A DNA stretch of 64,000 bases from Escherichia phage phiE142. The position numbers were made by a program, and so were the translations under genes. Location: sequence record NC_055709.1; one strand, given 5' to 3'. Shown here one piece after another: positions 8 to 52,990 of this stretch (positions within the stretch are counted from its first letter, which is position 1; every line of letters begins with the position of its first letter). The notes under the pieces were generated by a model. It saw nothing but the letters and a program-made list of their open reading frames with translations. It was not told the origin of the DNA and searched no databases.

Positions 8-559
8 ATGGCCGATTTAAAAGCCAACAAGCCAAAAGCGGCTGATAACGATTTCGTATCTAAAGCAAACGGCGGGACATATCTCAAAAAGGTAATCTTT
101 AACGAAGGTGTTGCAGTCAAAACAGCTGATGACCAAACGAATGGTATTTTTTCTGGTGGTGGTGACGCCGCGACATTCGACCAAACAAACATGGATATTG
201 TTTCGTGGTATGGTATTGGGTTTAAATCATCTCAAGGTACCGGTGAAAGAACTGTTGTAATTGATACTCGCACCGGTAATATAAGTTCTAAAGGCGTTAT
301 TGAAGCATCTCAATTCAGAGCCACAACGTTAGCACCTTTAAATAATTACGACCTTACTCGCAAAGATTATGTTGATAGTCAAATAAATACAGTTAATGCT
401 AATGCAAACAGTCGCGTACTCCGTTCAGGAGATACGATGACCGGCGCTCTAACAGCCCCAAACTTTTTCTCACAGAATCCTGCATCTCAACCATCGCATG
501 TTCCACGATTTGACCAAATTGTTATTAAGGATTCTGTTCAAGATTTCGGCTATTATTAA
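8..559 (+). CDS. 36: Long tail fibre distal connector subunit gp36
   Basis: 183-aa ORF; fibre motif SGDTMTGALTAP and C-terminus PRFDQIVIKDSVQDFGYY as in T4 gp36; directly upstream of gp37. Confidence 0.85.
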   Translation: MADLKANKPKAADNDFVSKANGGTYLKKVIFNEGVAVKTADDQTNGIFSGGGDAATFDQTNMDIVSWYGIGFKSSQGTGERTVVIDTRTGNISSKGVIEASQFRATTLAPLNNYDLTRKDYVDSQINTVNANANSRVLRSGDTMTGALTAPNFFSQNPASQPSHVPRFDQIVIKDSVQDFGYY

Positions 560-4675: not shown

Positions 4676-4705
4676 TTTGAATAAATATCCTTAAAAGGAG
4701 GGTCT

Positions 4706-5362
4706 ATGGCAGCACCTAGAATATCATTTTCGCCCTCTGATATTCTGTTGGGTGTTCTAGATCGCTTGTTCAAAGATAATGCTACCGGGAAGGTTCTTGC
4801 TTCCCGGGTAGCTGTCGTAATTCTTTTGTTTATAATGGCGATTGTTTGGTATAGGGGAGATAGTTTCTTTGAGTACTATAAGCAATCAAAGTATGAAACA
4901 TACAGTGAAATTATTGAAAAGGAAAGAAATGCACGCTTTGAATCTGTCGCCCTGGAACAACTCCAGATAGTTCATATATCATCTGAGGCAGACTTTAGTG
5001 CGGTGTATTCTTTCCGCCCTAAAAACTTAAACTATTTTGTTGATATTATAGCATACGAAGGAAGATTACCTTCAACAATAACAGAAAAATCACTTGGAGG
5101 ATATCCTGTTGATAAAACTATGGATGAATATACAGTCCATTTAAATGGACGTCATTATTATTCCAATTCAAAATTTGCTTTTTTACCAACTAAAAAGCCT
5201 ACTCCCGAAATAAATTACATGTACAGTTGTCCATATTTTAATTTGGATAATATCTATGCTGGAACAATAACCATGTACTGGTATAGAAATGATCATATAA
5301 GTAATGACCGCCTTGAATCAATATGTTCTCAGGCGGCCAGAATATTAGGAAGGGCTAAATAA
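4706..5362 (+). CDS. t: Holin (T4 gene t type)
   Basis: 218 aa, N-terminus MAAPRISFSPSDIL, single TM segment, near-identical to T4 holin T as I recall it; position after gene 38. Confidence 0.85.
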   Translation: MAAPRISFSPSDILLGVLDRLFKDNATGKVLASRVAVVILLFIMAIVWYRGDSFFEYYKQSKYETYSEIIEKERNARFESVALEQLQIVHISSEADFSAVYSFRPKNLNYFVDIIAYEGRLPSTITEKSLGGYPVDKTMDEYTVHLNGRHYYSNSKFAFLPTKKPTPEINYMYSCPYFNLDNIYAGTITMYWYRNDHISNDRLESICSQAARILGRAK

Positions 5363-17496: not shown

Positions 17497-19301
17497 TCTT
17501 TACGGAGTTCAGGGTCGTTACCCATGAGCATTTCAAATAGTTCTTTCCAATTTTCAGGAAGTTTAACTACGTCGTACACAGGGTTTTGAATCATTTCTTT
17601 ATATTCATCTCGCTGAAGTGAGCCCAATCCCTTGATGTATCGAATACTATGCTTAGGAAGCGTATCTTTAGCTTCTTCATACTCAGCTACAGTATAAAAC
17701 CATTTTTGAGATTTGCCAATTTGTGCAATAATTACAGGTGTTTTAACAAAGCGAATACGTCCTTGTTCAAACAATTCAGGCCAATTACTAAAGAAAGCAA
17801 GCAAAGCCGGATAGATACTTCCAAGACCGTCATGATCGGCATCGGTCATAATTGCAATATTACGATAGTTCGTATTCTCTGCCTTTTCACCAAGAATAAG
17901 ACCTGTGATAGCACAGATATCGAATAACTCTTTGTTCTTCATCATATCAGCATATGACATACCCCAGCTATTCATCACCTTACCACGTAATGGGAATCCG
18001 CCGTGTAGTTCACGGTCACGAACATCAATGAGATATCCAATTGCCGAATCACCTTCTGTTAAGAACAATGTCGTATCTGCATCTTTACCGCATTGGTTAG
18101 CTTTAATATGCTTATGAACCTTAGCTTTAGTTGCCTTTTTAGCTGCTTTAGTTTCTGCAGCCTTTTCTGCTGCCAATTTACGAGCTAATGCTGCTTCAAC
18201 AATAGGCATAATCAAGGATTCGTTTTTAAGAAGTGCCTGAGCAATTTTCTTAGCATCTAATTGGATATGATTACGAATATCACCATACGTTGACGTTAAA
18301 CGTTCTTTAGTCTGAGAATCAAAACGCATGTTGCTCATGTCTCTAATAAACATCAACATTGTGAGGCATTCTTTAACACGAGCTTTAGTGACTTCAATAC
18401 CCTTATATTTCTTTTTAATACCCGGCAAAAGATGTTCGCAGATATCATCCATTACACATTCAACATGATGACCACCATTTTTAGTATGGATGTTATTCAC
18501 ATAAGTTAAATGACGGAAGCCATCTGGTGATGTTGTGAATGCTATAGAGACTTTATCATTTTCTTGAATGATGTTATCTTCACCAAATTGTTTAGCAAAT
18601 CGTTTAAAATTACCATCAACCTTTTTACCATTAAATGTGAACTTGATATCAGGATAAACGACTGCCAATGTTTGAAGTCGGTCTAAAGTAATATCTAAAT
18701 AAATTTGAGATAAATTATGCTCTTCAAATGAAGTGAAATCAGGAGTGAAGATTACTTTAGTGCCTTTACCTTTAGATTTCTTAGAAGACCATGATTTGTT
18801 TTCCATTCCGTTTGAACAGTTAACAGTGATTTCATTTTCGCCATCTGACGTGATGCCTGTAAACAACGTAGAGAAGATATTAGTTAAACTACTCCCGACG
18901 CCGTTCATACCACCAGTCTTGCGTTCAGAATCATCACCAAAGTTACCACCGGCCTTTGGAATAGTCCAGGCTGCTACAGGACCAGGAATTTGTTCACCTG
19001 TTTGGTCGGTAACTAAACCTTGAGGAATACCACGTCCGTTATCTTCCACCGAAACTTGATTATTTTTAATTTGCACATCAATTTTATTTGCAAACTTAAA
19101 TGATGTACGAATAGCTTCATCAACCGAGTTGTCAATAATCTCATCGATTAATTTAACCAGACCAGGAACATATTCAACTTGTTGATATTTACCAAACAAA
19201 AAACGCTCGTGGGCTTCTTTAGCAGAAGAACCAATATACATGCCACTACGTTTCTTAATATGTTCTACATCTGACAGTACCTTAATTTCATTTTTAATCA
19301 T
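17481..19301 (-). CDS. 39: DNA topoisomerase II large subunit gp39 (unsplit, T2-type)
   Basis: 606 aa GyrB-like ATPase and TOPRIM regions; single ORF rather than the T4 39/60 split. Confidence 0.9.
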   Translation of the reverse strand: MIKNEIKVLSDVEHIKKRSGMYIGSSAKEAHERFLFGKYQQVEYVPGLVKLIDEIIDNSVDEAIRTSFKFANKIDVQIKNNQVSVEDNGRGIPQGLVTDQTGEQIPGPVAAWTIPKAGGNFGDDSERKTGGMNGVGSSLTNIFSTLFTGITSDGENEITVNCSNGMENKSWSSKKSKGKGTKVIFTPDFTSFEEHNLSQIYLDITLDRLQTLAVVYPDIKFTFNGKKVDGNFKRFAKQFGEDNIIQENDKVSIAFTTSPDGFRHLTYVNNIHTKNGGHHVECVMDDICEHLLPGIKKKYKGIEVTKARVKECLTMLMFIRDMSNMRFDSQTKERLTSTYGDIRNHIQLDAKKIAQALLKNESLIMPIVEAALARKLAAEKAAETKAAKKATKAKVHKHIKANQCGKDADTTLFLTEGDSAIGYLIDVRDRELHGGFPLRGKVMNSWGMSYADMMKNKELFDICAITGLILGEKAENTNYRNIAIMTDADHDGLGSIYPALLAFFSNWPELFEQGRIRFVKTPVIIAQIGKSQKWFYTVAEYEEAKDTLPKHSIRYIKGLGSLQRDEYKEMIQNPVYDVVKLPENWKELFEMLMGNDPELRKDWMLG

Positions 19302-28336: not shown

Positions 28337-28368
28337 AAAAACGAAAAAAGGAATCCCGAAGGATTCCT
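28337..28368 (-). terminator. Rho-independent terminator after soc
   Basis: Minus strand AGGAATCCTTCGGGATTCCT followed by TTTTTTCGTTTTT. Confidence 0.65.
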
Positions 28369-28376
28369 TAAATTAT

Positions 28377-28613
28377 TTAACCACTTACTGGTGTAGGGGT
28401 AAACATTGCGGCGTTCTTAGTACGCCAATCTGCTGCGTCAGTCACCACAGTAGTGTAAGCAGCTTTTTCAGATGGGAAAGTCTGATAATGAGCATCAGCA
28501 ATCCGATGTTCGTTTGAATAAATCTCAAACGGTACAGAAACTTCCATACCTTTAACTTCTTTACCTTCACCCGCAGGATGCGTAAAGGTTTTGATGTTTA
28601 CATAACCACCCAT
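28377..28613 (-). CDS. soc: Small outer capsid protein Soc
   Basis: 78 aa; GYVNIKTF...AHYQTFPSEKAAY matches T4 Soc. Confidence 0.8.
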   Translation of the reverse strand: MGGYVNIKTFTHPAGEGKEVKGMEVSVPFEIYSNEHRIADAHYQTFPSEKAAYTTVVTDAADWRTKNAAMFTPTPVSG

Positions 28614-28654
28614 AATTAACTCCTTTGTTGTTTAATTACAGGTGTATTTATAAC

Positions 28655-29176
28655 TTAATATCCGTTGTCCTGGCGTTCAAAGTTGTGTTGGTTTTTCAAG
28701 TAGTAAAGTTTAAAGATTTCTTCAGCAGAAAGACCCAGACCTTGGAACATATTCAGAACAAAGTGCAGAATATCAATCATTTCGAATTTAATTTCGAGCT
28801 GGTCTTCAGGAGACAGTTCATCGATACGACGATTTCGATATTCAGCATGTTGTGCTTTCCATGGCTTCCATACACTGCTGGCGGCTTTTTCACCATTGCT
28901 CATACCACCAAGTGAAGTCAGCAGTTCACGGAATTCATCATCAATATAATCTTTCTGATTACGCAGCCAATCAACAACATCGCCGGCAGTAGCCAATTCA
29001 TCAGGATGTTTGTTATGTTCAGGCTTGTCATTTGCCAGACGAACCTGTAAAGATTTCTGCATATCAAGCATTACCTGCAGTGGGTCTTTATCTTCGTGAA
29101 TCAGAGCATTAAAATAAGCTTCTTCTGCTTTATCAACACCAGAAATAAGTTGTGAACATTCGTTAAAGTGTGCCAT
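28655..29176 (-). CDS. 56: dCTP pyrophosphatase gp56 (MazG-like)
   Basis: Start at MAHFNEC as in T4 gp56; DELATAGDVVDW, EIKFE.IDI.HFVLNMF blocks. Confidence 0.8.
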   Translation of the reverse strand: MAHFNECSQLISGVDKAEEAYFNALIHEDKDPLQVMLDMQKSLQVRLANDKPEHNKHPDELATAGDVVDWLRNQKDYIDDEFRELLTSLGGMSNGEKAASSVWKPWKAQHAEYRNRRIDELSPEDQLEIKFEMIDILHFVLNMFQGLGLSAEEIFKLYYLKNQHNFERQDNGY

Positions 29177-29265
29177 TATTTTTCCTTTCAATTCAGTATA
29201 AGAGAGTTTAATTCTAACATTAATTTTATAAAGCGTAATAAATAATAGGTAACTAAGGAGATATT

Positions 29266-29463
29266 ATGTTTAAACTTCCATCGTTAATCAACGCTATTAA
29301 AGGCAATAAAAAGAAAACTGCTATCGCTGCAATAGTTGTAGGTGGCATTATTTCATGGAACTTCGGTATCGCACCGGTGTTAGTTGCTAATGGTATTATA
29401 GTTCCTTCTGTTCCGTTGGATACTGTAGTTGACCTAGCTTTTGCTGTTATAGGGTTAGTCTAA
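29266..29463 (+). CDS. Small hydrophobic protein (65 aa) on the plus strand
   Basis: Strong AAGGAG ribosome-binding site 7 nt before ATG; Lys-rich N-terminus then hydrophobic stretch; lies between genes 56 and 61, overlapping the gene 61 stop. Confidence 0.4.
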   Translation: MFKLPSLINAIKGNKKKTAIAAIVVGGIISWNFGIAPVLVANGIIVPSVPLDTVVDLAFAVIGLV

Positions 29464-30482
29464 ATTTTAGAATACCGAGATAATCTCATTTTAGCATGCA
29501 ACCCACTTGAAATATTCTGTTTCATATATTCTAAAATTTCTTGTGGTGTTGCATTTTCTTTCATTACCATATCATTCACATCCTTTGAACTCCATGGAGC
29601 TCTATCCCAGAACATAACACGTTCACCTGCATCTACTAATCGCTTCATACGAGCTATAGTATCCGGATGCCTAGGTTCATTATCCATTACCCATACCCGA
29701 CGTTCTTTAAATGGTACCACATCTAAATCTATTGAGCCGCCTGTAATAGCGATTGCATTGGGTATGAATAAACTATCAATAGGGCCTTCCATTACCCAGA
29801 CGTCTCCTTCCTTAACACGTTCAACACCATAAATTTTTGTTGCAGATTCAAAAGCTTTAATAGTGATATATTTTTGAGGAGCATCTTTGCGAAGTGCACG
29901 TCCTTGAAATGACTCGGCCTTCCCGTCTTTATTAAAAATAGGAATCACTAAACGCGGTTCAGGAATCTCTTTCTTATACGTACCAGGTTGAATCTTGTTG
30001 ACCAATTTAGGCCATTCTAATGTGAACCATAATCTGTTCCACGATTCTTTAGGAATACACCGAGACTTAACATATTTCACAATAGGATGCTCTTCAGGCA
30101 GCTTGTCCAGACGAGAACAAGACGGCAAAGAATTTATAGTCTTTTTCTCCGGTTCTGGTTTATGTTCAGGAACCTTTTCAATCTTTGGTTCCATTCTAGC
30201 TTTTTCTTTACGAACTTCCATTAGATATTCACGATAAAGCTCTTCGTCATACTCTTTTAAGTATCCGGAAATTGTATTATGATATTGGCAGTTATAGCAA
30301 TGCACATTACCTGGAGTACCACCGTAATACCATCCGCGGGCTTTCATTGCATCTGTCTGAGAGTCGCCGCAAACTGGACAACGAAACGTTAATTTAAATG
30401 TGCTTGAATTATTGATTTGTCTAAAACGAGGTAGGTGAGAAAACGCACGATAAGCAAATTCATTATCTATCCATTCAGCCAT
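29460..30482 (-). CDS. 61: DNA primase gp61
   Basis: 340 aa; N-terminal zinc ribbon CPVCGDS...CYNCQYH and TOPRIM-like C-terminal region; T4 gp61 size/position. Confidence 0.85.
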   Translation of the reverse strand: MAEWIDNEFAYRAFSHLPRFRQINNSSTFKLTFRCPVCGDSQTDAMKARGWYYGGTPGNVHCYNCQYHNTISGYLKEYDEELYREYLMEVRKEKARMEPKIEKVPEHKPEPEKKTINSLPSCSRLDKLPEEHPIVKYVKSRCIPKESWNRLWFTLEWPKLVNKIQPGTYKKEIPEPRLVIPIFNKDGKAESFQGRALRKDAPQKYITIKAFESATKIYGVERVKEGDVWVMEGPIDSLFIPNAIAITGGSIDLDVVPFKERRVWVMDNEPRHPDTIARMKRLVDAGERVMFWDRAPWSSKDVNDMVMKENATPQEILEYMKQNISSGLHAKMRLSRYSKI

Positions 30483-30521
30483 AGTATTCTCCAGAGGCCT
30501 TAAATTAATAAGGCCATCATA

Positions 30522-31016
30522 TCACAACTTATTAATATTTACTTTAATTCGCTTTCTTTTCTTGGAAGGAATTTGTTCTGGACCTTTATTTACGACTGCA
30601 CCTGTAGTTGTTCCTGATGCAATAGCTTGAGGGCTGCCACCTGAATCACCAGCCACCATATCCTCAAATAAAGGGAGTTCTTTAAATATTTCTTTCTGCT
30701 GTTCTTCTGTAATGTTATAGCGGGATGCTACGGCACTCCAGGCAGACATCATTGAGGCCATTCCATTAAGACCTGGAACAGTACTCATCATTCGCTTCAT
30801 TGAACGAACTGAAGCATGAAAAGGTGTATAAGCCGCTTTCTCTTCGGGAGTAGAAGGACGTTTAAGAACACTTCCACGTTCATCGATGATTTTGGCTTCG
30901 TACGCTTTCCATTCTGTAAAAGGTTTTTGCATTAGTCGAATAAACTTATATGCATAAACTGAATCTATTGCAGTGTTAATAATACCCATAGGTACCTCCT
31001 GAGTATATTTAATCAA
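30522..31016 (-). CDS. Hypothetical protein (164 aa)
   Basis: ORF only. Confidence 0.5.
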   Translation of the reverse strand: MIKYTQEVPMGIINTAIDSVYAYKFIRLMQKPFTEWKAYEAKIIDERGSVLKRPSTPEEKAAYTPFHASVRSMKRMMSTVPGLNGMASMMSAWSAVASRYNITEEQQKEIFKELPLFEDMVAGDSGGSPQAIASGTTTGAVVNKGPEQIPSKKRKRIKVNINKL

Positions 31017-51745: not shown

Positions 51746-51974
51746 TACACGCTTCAGCCATTTTAAGAATAGAGCCAGGAGTATCGTTGTCCATTACATT
51801 AAAGCTAAATTCAATAGCCCAGTCGGTGCAGACATGAACTGCTTTAACTTCATTGCCTTCAACGCGTAATGGCTCAATCCAATACTTGATAGTGTTCTCG
51901 AATCCATCATCATCTTTAACGTCTATTTCAACTTCAAGCCCGAGCCCAGCATTGTTAAATTCATCTAAAGTCAT
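51717..51974 (-). CDS. Hypothetical protein (85 aa)
   Basis: ORF coupled to gp47. Confidence 0.5.
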   Translation of the reverse strand: MTLDEFNNAGLGLEVEIDVKDDDGFENTIKYWIEPLRVEGNEVKAVHVCTDWAIEFSFNVMDNDTPGSILKMAEACIEDAYNDED

Positions 51975-52990
51975 TGTGTTGCCTCAATATAAAGTTCGTT
52001 GGAATATTTGACCAGCGCTTCTCTGTCTTCGTCTGAGATATCTGGAATCGCGTCAATATATTCTTTAATGATATCTTGAAGTGATTTAATCTCGATTTCC
52101 TGGTCGTCATCAGATTCAACACTGTTATCAACTTTAGAAACCATACGAAGAGAGTGAACTACTTTTTCAAGTTCAGATTCAAACTTAGTCAACTCTGAAT
52201 CAATTTCTGATACTATAACACGTAAGGCTAGATTAGTATAATCAGAATAATTGATTTTGCCTTTAAACGGATAAGTGATTCGTCGATGCCATGTTGTTTC
52301 ATTAGGAATAAATTCCATACGTTCAACGTCAGTGTCAAATACCCAGAATCCGCGAGGATCATTCTCATCACCTGCAGTAAGGGTCCATGGTGTCCCAATA
52401 TATTTGACGTTAGCAGCTTCAGAGATTGTGTGGAAGTGGCCGGACCAGACTTGTTTATAGGTCTTTAAGAAATCAGGTTCAAGCCCATGAGACTTCATTC
52501 CTTTATAGAAATAGAAGCCGTTCAGTTCCCAGTGTCCAACACAATACGCAGCAGAAGAAGTCTTGATGTGCTCTAAGATTTCACCTGTATTTTCTTCACA
52601 CATCCATGGAACGATATCAATCAGACATCCGTCAAAATCTACAGTAGTTGGATGTTCATAAATAGTAAAGTTTTCAAATTGAGTTAACAATTCAGAAACA
52701 GTGTTAGGTGTTATTGTATTCTTAAACGCCATGTCATGGTTTCCTATCGTGACATGAACGTGAATGCCTGCTTTAGAAATCATATCAACGATTTCACGAT
52801 TGAATTCCATTGTACGATGTGTTATTGCTTTACGGACGTCAAACCAATCACCGTACTGAATCCAAGTTTTAATCCCGTGTTTCTTAGAGTATTCAATTGC
52901 TTGTCGAATACCATCACGTTGAATATCTTGAACCCACGGGTCGTCTTGTTTGACTCCGATATGGAAGTCGCCTAAGTGCAAAATTTTCAT
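51971..52990 (-). CDS. 47: Recombination nuclease subunit gp47 (Mre11/SbcD-like)
   Basis: 339 aa; MKILHLGDFH phosphoesterase motif I, GNHD, GHWE/GHFH motifs. Confidence 0.88.
   Translation of the reverse strand: MKILHLGDFHIGVKQDDPWVQDIQRDGIRQAIEYSKKHGIKTWIQYGDWFDVRKAITHRTMEFNREIVDMISKAGIHVHVTIGNHDMAFKNTITPNTVSELLTQFENFTIYEHPTTVDFDGCLIDIVPWMCEENTGEILEHIKTSSAAYCVGHWELNGFYFYKGMKSHGLEPDFLKTYKQVWSGHFHTISEAANVKYIGTPWTLTAGDENDPRGFWVFDTDVERMEFIPNETTWHRRITYPFKGKINYSDYTNLALRVIVSEIDSELTKFESELEKVVHSLRMVSKVDNSVESDDDQEIEIKSLQDIIKEYIDAIPDISDEDREALVKYSNELYIEATQ

What the first reader, a model, noticed from the sequence alone, without database searches (positions are those of the whole stretch)
29266..29463. 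Plus-strand small hydrophobic ORF inside the minus-strand early block
This 65-aa ORF has a strong AAGGAG ribosome-binding site, a Lys-rich N-terminus and a long hydrophobic stretch. It sits between genes 56 and 61 on the opposite strand, overlaps the gene 61 stop, and is preceded by AATAAATA, one mismatch from the late-promoter core TATAAATA. It would be transcribed convergently to early mRNAs and may be a late membrane peptide or an antisense regulatory unit.
Basis: seen in the sequence. Interest (0 to 1): 0.5.

Follow-up and report, generated by a model that had tools for sequence, protein, structure and literature searches.

The report
Late small membrane protein gene
The 65-codon ORF is a real, conserved gene of T4-like phages that very probably makes a small inner-membrane protein late in infection; it is already listed as a hypothetical protein in related phages, its function is unknown, and the T4 reference annotation omits it.

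Summary
ORF 29266..29463 (+) has AAGGAG 5 nt before its ATG and AATAAATA at 29237-29244. It has five lysines in its first 17 residues, a hydrophobic remainder, and a stop overlapping the gene 61 stop.

The window is an RB69-like Mosigvirus and the ORF is RB69ORF029w. It belongs to phrog_2024 (unknown function) and is called dam.1 in phage T4T.

It codes for protein. dN/dS is 0.1-0.4, second codon positions are conserved, and only this frame is open in all eight gene copies examined. It sits in the same place, convergent on the primase gene, in six named Tevenvirinae genera plus one further Klebsiella phage.

Late transcription is inferred, not measured. ATAAATA occurs 6 times in 64 kb against about 30 expected. 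Three other copies lie directly before holin t (also AATAAATA), soc and gene 49. A late-promoter-like motif precedes the gene in every lineage that has its own promoter. T4 early and middle transcripts all run on the other strand.

AlphaFold predicts one membrane helix with invariant Trp-Asn and a conserved loop after it. Function is unknown. A holin label on one ortholog is unsupported. An antisense effect on primase mRNA is possible but secondary.

This is a known hypothetical gene. The T4 RefSeq omission is the main practical point.

The parts
29237..29244 (+). Late (gp55-type) promoter motif AATAAATA. With the motif spanning -13 to -6, the predicted transcription start is near 29250.
   Evidence: Sequence. 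ATAAATA is 5x depleted in the window. The same variant sits 18 nt before the ATG of holin gene t at 4680-4687. A(-13) is found at 9 of 50 T4 late promoters (PMC2988020), and -13 is A or T in RB69 (PMC1524935). A related motif precedes every ortholog that has its own promoter. GATAAATA is annotated as a promoter in phage Lutter, MT682714. The transcription start is inferred, not mapped.
29255..29260 (+). Shine-Dalgarno sequence AAGGAG, 5 nt before the ATG.
   Evidence: Sequence. AGGAG(G) is present at the same spacing before every ortholog that has its own promoter; the downstream b copy in VR25 and UPEC01 has only GGTGGA.
29266..29463 (+). Coding sequence of the 65-aa small membrane protein (RB69ORF029w, T4T dam.1, phrog_2024), stop codon included.
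   Evidence: ORF listing. phrog_2024 at E 2e-26. 691 phage records match. dN/dS 0.1-0.4 with codon-position bias. It is the only frame open in all eight gene copies. AlphaFold2 mean pLDDT 81: helices at 3-11, 15-41 and 51-62.
29460..29463 (.). Convergent 4-nt overlap of the ORF stop (TAA, plus strand) with the gene 61 stop (TAG, minus strand).
   Evidence: The same overlap is seen in RB69, T4, T6, S16, Merlin and pzk-kv8. It is absent in JD18, where a 17-nt gap separates the two genes.
29460..30482 (-). Gene 61 (DNA primase), the convergent early/middle gene. A late plus-strand transcript would run antisense into it, because no terminator follows the ORF.
   Evidence: Annotation of relatives. 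No terminator-like site on the plus strand after 29463.
28655..29176 (-). Gene 56 (dCTPase), the divergent neighbour. Its start lies 89 nt from the ORF start.
   Evidence: phrog_173. RB69 annotation.

Best explanation
This is a genuine late gene sitting in an early region of an RB69-like (Mosigvirus) T-even phage.

Expression model:
- Late in infection, host RNA polymerase carrying the phage sigma factor gp55 starts at AATAAATA (29237-29244), near 29250.
- The short leader carries AAGGAG.
- The 65-aa product is translated.

Protein model:
- The Lys-rich N-terminus stays in the cytoplasm.
- Residues ~15-41 form one inner-membrane helix that carries an invariant Trp-Asn pair.
- The conserved segment G-x3-P-x-(V/P)-x-L-(D/E), plus a short hydrophobic helix, lies at the periplasmic face.

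Shown here: the ORF and its signals; protein-level selection; conserved position and conserved upstream motif in six named genera plus one further Klebsiella phage; the specificity of the motif within this window.

Inferred: late timing, membrane insertion and topology.

Most likely mode of action (speculative): a small accessory membrane protein that binds a larger phage or host membrane protein through the Asn-containing helix, in the way small bacterial membrane proteins such as MgrB or AcrZ do. It would tune a late envelope event such as lysis timing or lysis inhibition. It appears dispensable for growth in the laboratory.

Because no terminator follows, the transcript probably also runs antisense into primase gene 61. 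I regard that as a side effect.
For: Coding:
- Nei-Gojobori dN/dS is 0.10 (window vs RB69), 0.26 (vs VR25) and 0.05-0.35 within genera.
- Differences by codon position are 31/12/40 for window vs T4, chi-square p = 6e-4, with the same pattern in five of six other between-genus pairs tested.
- Frame +0 is the only one free of stops in all eight gene copies.
- 684 of 691 matching phage records carry at least 80% of it in one piece.

Conserved position: the gene is convergent on gene 61 in Mosigvirus, Tequatrovirus, Gaprivervirus, Gelderlandvirus, Moonvirus and Jiaodavirus, and in Klebsiella phage pzk-kv8.

Late promoter:
- ATAAATA occurs 6 times against 30.3 +/- 4.8 expected.
- Three other copies lie 18-31 nt before the start codons of holin t (AATAAATA), soc and gene 49.
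- Orthologs carry GATAAATA (T4), AATAAATA (T6), CATAAATA (VR25), GATAAATA plus CATAAATA (JD18), ATTAAATA (S16, Merlin) and a perfect TATAAATA (pzk-kv8), while the flanks have diverged.
- A(-13) occurs at 9 of 50 T4 late promoters, and early and middle transcripts all have the other polarity (PMC2988020).
- The Lutter record annotates this motif as a promoter.

Membrane protein:
- Hydropathy maximum 1.95 over 19 residues.
- A membrane helix at 21-41 was predicted in 2006 (PMC1524935 supplement 2).
- AlphaFold2 mean pLDDT 81, with a 27-residue helix.
- Invariant W31, N32, P37, G43, P47.

Dispensable: natural frameshift in phage 4E10; the b copy is a pseudogene or deleted in UPEC07 and phage 212.
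Against: - No transcript, ribosome or peptide evidence was found. The T4 dRNA-seq start-site table is not held.
- An HMM search for late promoters in RB69 did not list a site here (PMC1524935 supplement 5).
- In S16, Merlin and the proximal JD18 site, the motif is only 12-15 nt from the ATG. The predicted start would then fall within or at the edge of the Shine-Dalgarno sequence.
- T4 has G and Gaprivervirus has C at -13. Neither variant was checked here against known active promoters.
- The functional proposal (partner binding, lysis control) has no direct support: no Pfam, NCBIfam or PDB match, and no lysis gene adjacent.
- The topology of the C-terminal third is uncertain. It is hydrophobic but too short to form a second membrane span in the model.
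Confidence: 0.8

Rival explanations
1. The unit works mainly as an antisense regulator. The late plus-strand transcript pairs with gene 61 / gene 56 early mRNA and helps shut it off, and the peptide is incidental.
For: - The ORF is convergent on gene 61 and overlaps it by 4 nt.
- No terminator-like site follows it on the plus strand.
- Minus-strand early transcripts that reach gene 56 must cross the ORF.
- T4 is known to transcribe both strands at several sites at different times (PMC2988020).
Against: - Protein-level selection (dN/dS 0.1-0.4, conserved second codon positions, invariant W-N-P-G-P) is not explained by a pairing function.
- The overlap with gene 61 is lost in JD18.
- In Gaprivervirus a second ORF lies between the a-type ORF and gene 61.
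- The RNA shows no unusual structure (z = -1.6) and no Rfam match.
Confidence: 0.1
2. It is a second holin or pinholin-like pore former, or a holin partner, that takes part directly in lysis.
For: - It is small, probably late, has one membrane helix and carries an Asn that could drive oligomerisation.
- Its promoter and leader have the same layout as holin gene t in this window.
- UniProt names the ortholog in phage OE5505 'Holin'.
- T4 has two in-frame Met codons separated by a Lys (MVQKLM), reminiscent of dual-start holins.
Against: - There is no charged hydrophilic C-terminal tail; the protein ends in hydrophobic residues.
- It matches no holin family in Pfam or PHROGs; phrog_2024 is 'unknown function'.
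- The phage already has the canonical holin T.
- The two-Met motif is absent from Mosigvirus and Gaprivervirus and broken in T6.
- The 'Holin' label has no stated basis, and other records give unrelated labels.
- The gene is lost in some isolates.
Confidence: 0.1
3. It is a chance ORF in a long intergenic spacer that is conserved for another reason, such as a promoter or leader of gene 56 or an element of the nearby replication origin.
For: - A sigma70-like site on the minus strand (29291..29263) points toward gene 56.
- The T4 record X01416 places a potential early promoter in the same spacer.
- The antisense frame -1 is also open in Mosigvirus and T4.
Against: - The substitution pattern follows the plus-strand codon phase.
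- The -1 frame has stops in four other lineages.
- Amino-acid motifs are kept while synonymous sites are saturated (pS 0.69-0.76 between genera).
- The gene stays next to gene 61 even where dam or other genes separate it from gene 56.
Confidence: 0.02

Closest known systems
RB69ORF029w / T4T dam.1 / PHROG phrog_2024 (hypothetical small protein of T-even phages)
   Same: It is the same gene. It is 97% identical to RB69ORF029w, matches phrog_2024 over its full length (E 2e-26), and has the same position and orientation.
   Different: Nothing material. The window copy has V38 and N42 where RB69 has L38 and H42. No function is attached to the family.
soc of T4: a late gene located in an early region
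   Same: Both are small genes driven by a late promoter, embedded among early genes about 0.6 kb apart, on either side of gene 56.
   Different: soc lies on the early (minus) strand and encodes a soluble capsid decoration protein. This gene lies on the opposite strand and encodes a membrane protein.
Phage holins (for example T4 T, lambda S, phage 21 S21)
   Same: Small size or single membrane helix, late expression, likely oligomerisation in the inner membrane. The promoter variant and spacing match those of gene t here.
   Different: There is no charged C-terminal domain, no family match, no conserved dual start, and the phage has T already.
Small bacterial membrane-protein regulators (MgrB, AcrZ and similar)
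   Same: Size of 50-70 aa, a single membrane helix, and conserved polar residues within the helix that could dock onto a larger membrane protein. This is an analogy from general knowledge only.
   Different: There is no sequence or structural match and no partner has been identified. This is a lead, not a test.

Membership tests
phrog_2024 / RB69ORF029w / dam.1 family | Full-length significant match to the family profile | tested here: met
   E 2.2e-26 over residues 1-65 of 65. The T4, VR25b, S16 and JD18 forms also match, at E 1e-24 to 5e-31.
phrog_2024 / RB69ORF029w / dam.1 family | Conserved position: plus-strand ORF convergent on primase gene 61, downstream of the gene 56 (or dam) region | tested here: met
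T4-type late gene | TATAAATA-type motif at -13 to -6, followed by a short leader, with no -35 element needed | tested here: met
   AATAAATA at 29237-29244, 21 nt before the ATG. It is the same variant as before gene t. The motif is 5x depleted elsewhere in the window. The A(-13) variant is documented (PMC2988020, PMC1524935).
T4-type late gene | gp55/gp33/gp45- and replication-dependent transcript that appears late | not testable with these tools
   No expression data are held for this locus.
Holin | At least one membrane helix in a small protein | tested here: met
   A membrane helix at 21-41 is given in PMC1524935 supplement 2.
Holin | Highly charged, hydrophilic C-terminal domain | tested here: not met
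   The C-terminus is ...DLAFAVIGLV. Only two acidic residues and no basic residue follow residue 17.
Holin | Match to a known holin family | tested here: not met
   No Pfam hit at E <= 10. The PHROG family is 'unknown function'. No NCBIfam hit.
Holin | Lethal hole formation that releases endolysin | not testable with these tools
   This needs expression and complementation experiments.
Type I toxin / cis-antisense pair (Hok/Sok-like) | Small hydrophobic toxin ORF controlled by a dedicated overlapping antisense RNA | tested here: inconclusive
   The opposite-strand RNA here is ordinary early mRNA for genes 61 and 56, not a dedicated small RNA. There is no Rfam match. Toxicity is untested.

The most novel reading that the evidence does not exclude
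dam.1 / RB69ORF029w could be an overlooked late membrane component of the T-even lysis or lysis-inhibition apparatus, or of another envelope process. It would act by helix-helix association through its invariant Trp-Asn. It has escaped study because the T4 reference annotation lacks it, and genome-wide screens built on that annotation never targeted it.
Probability: 0.12. Interest if true: 0.55.

Novelty: already known. Interest (0 to 1): 0.27.

Why it matters
The gene is a catalogued hypothetical protein, so the finding does not reveal a new kind of system.

It has practical value in two ways.

First, comparative evidence now makes a firm case that this is a real protein-coding gene, very probably expressed late and inserted in the membrane. 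The gene is conserved in six named Tevenvirinae genera and one further Klebsiella phage.

Second, the T4 reference records (NC_000866, AF158101) leave its ortholog at 17738..17938 unannotated. Work built on that gene list has skipped it, including the genome-wide CRISPRi-ART knock-down screen of T4 (PMC11879866, supplements 8 and 15). T4 lysis control and envelope biology are intensively studied, so a conserved late membrane protein of unknown role is a cheap and well-defined target for a deletion and expression experiment.

Tried and rejected
- Pfam, NCBIfam and PDB sequence searches gave nothing significant, with both the single protein and the family profile.
- Foldseek against viral models returned only the T4-type ortholog, labelled 'Holin' without basis, and two weak small-helix matches.
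- An exhaustive phmmer search of 1.8 billion cluster representatives found two clusters at E <= 0.001.
- The later profile search gave 119 hits. Every named one is from a T4-like phage or a phage-contaminated bacterial assembly.
- No paralog exists elsewhere in the window.
- Rfam and RNA folding gave no support for an RNA element.
- Literature searches for the ORF names (RB69ORF029w, RB32ORF030w, dam.1) and for T4 ribosome profiling or proteogenomics found nothing on this gene.
- The T4 dRNA-seq start-site table that could confirm the promoter is not among the held supplements.
- The T4 genome review (PMC150520) is not held.
- I considered and rejected a spurious ORF (codon-phase test).
- I considered and rejected an early gene (wrong strand).
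- I considered and rejected a conserved dual-start motif (T4 only).
- I considered and rejected the product names 'head morphogenesis protein' and 'DNA packaging ATPase' found on orthologs, which look like transferred mislabels.

Full report
**What is there**

- A plus-strand ORF runs from ATG 29266 to TAA 29461-29463 and encodes 65 aa.
- AAGGAG lies at 29255-29260, 5 nt before the ATG.
- AATAAATA lies at 29237-29244.
- The product has five lysines in its first 17 residues. The rest is hydrophobic (GRAVY 1.24).
- It lies between two minus-strand genes: gene 56 (dCTPase, 28655..29176; phrog_173) and gene 61 (primase, 29460..30482).
- The two reading frames share 29460-29463, so the stop codons overlap.

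**Identity of the phage and the gene**

- A 2-kb query (28600-30600) around the ORF is 99.3% identical to Escherichia phage phiC120 and about 97% to other RB69-like phages of genus Mosigvirus.
- In RB69 the same ORF is annotated as RB69ORF029w, a hypothetical protein.
- A 2006 comparative paper listed a predicted membrane helix at residues 21-41 for it (PMC1524935 supplement 2).
- The protein matches PHROG family phrog_2024, 'unknown function', over its full length (E 2e-26).
- It matches nothing in Pfam, NCBIfam or the PDB.
- tblastn finds it in 691 phage records, and 684 carry at least 80% of it in one piece.
- A second tblastn with the S16 form, plus a profile search, extend the family further.
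- All named members come from T4-like phages. An exhaustive single-sequence search of 1.8 billion cluster representatives found only two clusters.

**Protein-coding or not**

I built codon alignments from the fetched loci. All three tests point to a protein-coding gene.
- Nei-Gojobori dN/dS is 0.10 for window vs RB69, 0.26 vs VR25 and 0.43 for T4 vs VR25. Within genera it is 0.05-0.35. Synonymous sites are saturated between genera (pS 0.69-0.76).
- Differences fall mostly on codon positions 1 and 3. For window vs T4 the counts are 31/12/40 (chi-square p = 6e-4). Five of the six other between-genus pairs tested show the same bias. The exception is window vs S16, the most distant pair.
- Of the six reading frames across the ORF interval, only this one is free of stops in all eight gene copies.
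- The region has no Rfam match. Its RNA fold is unremarkable (z = -1.6).

The chance-ORF and RNA-element readings can be set aside.

**Conserved position**

The gene sits on the strand opposite the early genes and converges on the primase gene in all of these:
- Mosigvirus
- Tequatrovirus (T4, T6)
- Gaprivervirus (VR25, UPEC01)
- Gelderlandvirus (S16 gp16.1, CF-SP2)
- Moonvirus (Merlin gp33)
- Jiaodavirus (JD18_010)
- Klebsiella phage pzk-kv8

It is missing from this locus in one representative each of Karamvirus, Winklervirus, Slopekvirus and Krischvirus.

Two sequence types exist.
- Gaprivervirus carries both in tandem.
- The second copy is a pseudogene in UPEC07 and deleted in phage 212.
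- pzk-kv8 has only the second type.

Residues W31, N32, P37, G43 and P47 are invariant across all forms. Position 52 is acidic in all but the b-type sequences.

**When it is expressed**

No expression data were available, so late timing is an inference. The case is strong, for five reasons.
- **Strand.** All T4 early and middle transcripts have one polarity, which is the minus strand here. Only late transcripts use either strand (PMC2988020).
- **Rarity of the motif.** The heptamer ATAAATA is rare in this AT-rich window: 6 copies against 30.3 +/- 4.8 in shuffles. Avoidance of this kind is expected for a promoter core.
- **Where the other five copies lie**.
  - Three lie 18-31 nt before the start codons of holin t (4680, AATAAATA), soc (28652, minus strand) and endonuclease VII gene 49 (60579, minus strand).
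  - One lies inside tail-fibre gene 36, upstream of gene 37.
  - One lies antisense inside gene 47.
- **The variant.** The AATAAATA variant therefore drives an undoubted late gene in this same phage. The literature reports A at -13 in 9 of 50 T4 late promoters (PMC2988020) and A or T at -13 in RB69 (PMC1524935).
- **Conservation across lineages.** Every ortholog that has its own promoter carries a related motif followed by AGGAG(G), while the flanks have diverged.
  - T4: GATAAATA
  - T6: AATAAATA
  - Gaprivervirus: CATAAATA
  - JD18: GATAAATA and CATAAATA
  - S16 and Merlin: ATTAAATA
  - pzk-kv8: a perfect TATAAATA

The GenBank record of phage Lutter already annotates this GATAAATA as a promoter.

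Points against:
- The 2006 HMM scan of RB69 did not list a late promoter here.
- In S16, Merlin and the proximal JD18 site the motif is so close to the ATG that the predicted start falls at or within the Shine-Dalgarno sequence.

**The protein**

AlphaFold2 was run on a shallow alignment of eight sequences. It gives mean pLDDT 81, with these elements:
- a short amphipathic helix at 3-11;
- a 27-residue helix at 15-41;
- a loop at 42-50;
- a 12-residue helix at 51-62.

With all basic residues at the N-terminus, the positive-inside rule puts the N-terminus in the cytoplasm. The conserved G-x3-P-x-(V/P)-x-L-(D/E) segment would then lie at the periplasmic face. The last helix is hydrophobic but too short to span the membrane, so its placement is uncertain. 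An Asn conserved inside a membrane helix usually means helix-helix association. That points to self-association or to binding a partner.

**Function**

Function is unknown, and nothing I could run resolves it.

My best guess is a small accessory membrane protein that docks onto a larger membrane protein and tunes a late envelope event such as lysis timing or lysis inhibition.

The holin reading fails two defining tests and has other points against it.
- There is no charged C-terminal tail.
- There is no match to any holin family.
- The phage already has holin T.
- The 'Holin' name on one UniProt entry has no visible basis.
- Other orthologs carry unrelated names such as 'head morphogenesis protein' or 'DNA packaging ATPase'.

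The gene seems dispensable in the laboratory. Phage 4E10 has a frameshift that leaves a 41-aa remnant, and second copies decay.

**The antisense idea**

No terminator-like site follows the ORF on the plus strand. The late transcript would therefore enter gene 61 in antisense. Early minus-strand transcripts bound for gene 56 are complementary to the ORF.

Pairing is therefore plausible, but it cannot explain the protein-level conservation. The overlap with gene 61 is not universal either: JD18 has a 17-nt gap, and in Gaprivervirus a second ORF separates the a-type ORF from gene 61. I treat it as a possible side effect.

**What is new, and what is not**

The ORF, its predicted membrane helix and, in one record, its promoter are already in public annotation. 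The honest label is 'already known, function unknown'.

One point is worth passing on. The T4 reference records NC_000866 and AF158101 leave the ortholog unannotated.
- It lies at 17738..17938 on the plus strand, encodes 66 aa, and sits in a 309-bp gap between dam and gene 61.
- The T4T record calls it dam.1.
- The genome-wide CRISPRi-ART screen of T4 used the reference gene list and has no guides for it.
- I found no paper that mentions the gene under any of its names.

Noticed in passing
window 1-64000, both strands: The late-promoter core ATAAATA is about five-fold depleted: 6 copies against 30.3 +/- 4.8 in dinucleotide-preserving shuffles. This suggests selection against stray late promoters.
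   Followed up: partly
window 52657-52664 (+), inside gene 47 (51971..52990, minus): CATAAATA lies antisense within the gene 47 coding region. It could be an antisense late promoter or the one chance copy. The next plus-strand ATG ORF (52736..52975, 79 aa) has no obvious ribosome-binding site.
   Followed up: no
window 382-389 (+), inside gene 36 (8..559): AATAAATA lies within the tail-fibre gene 36, about 180 nt upstream of the gene 37 start (568). It may be an internal late promoter.
   Followed up: no
window 4680-4687 (+): Holin gene t (4706..5362) is preceded by the AATAAATA variant rather than the consensus TATAAATA, 18 nt before its ATG.
   Followed up: yes
window 28348-28369: A 9-bp-stem hairpin scores as terminator-like on both strands. 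On the minus strand a T-rich tract follows, and it lies just downstream of soc (28377..28613, minus).
   Followed up: no
window 29263-29291 (-): A sigma70-like site (TTGATT, 17-nt spacer, CATAAT) on the minus strand overlaps the 5' end of the ORF and points toward gene 56. The old T4 record X01416 places a potential early promoter in the equivalent spacer.
   Followed up: no
L004 (T4 NC_000866) 2739-2939 = record 17738..17938 (+): The T4 reference annotation has no gene here, although a 66-aa ortholog with AAGGAGG and GATAAATA is present. T4T names it dam.1. The CRISPRi-ART T4 screen has no guides for it.
   Followed up: yes
L005 / L006 1501-1907; L021 2323-2442; L007; L029 2501-2701: Two sequence types of the gene exist. 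Gaprivervirus carries both in tandem. The second is a pseudogene in UPEC07 and deleted in phage 212. Klebsiella phage pzk-kv8 has only the second type, behind a perfect TATAAATA.
   Followed up: partly
L002 (T6) 2492-2494; L009 (4E10) about 1440-1483; L008 (a20): T6 has ATT where T4 has the first ATG. Phage 4E10 has a frameshift that leaves a 41-aa remnant. Phage a20 and protein P0005 have an in-frame 3-residue deletion inside the membrane helix.
   Followed up: partly
public records of orthologs (T6 NC_054907, UPEC01 MW233709, SAKp28, OE5505): Orthologs carry unrelated product names ('putative head morphogenesis protein', 'DNA packaging ATPase', 'Holin'). These look like mislabels transferred automatically.
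   Followed up: partly
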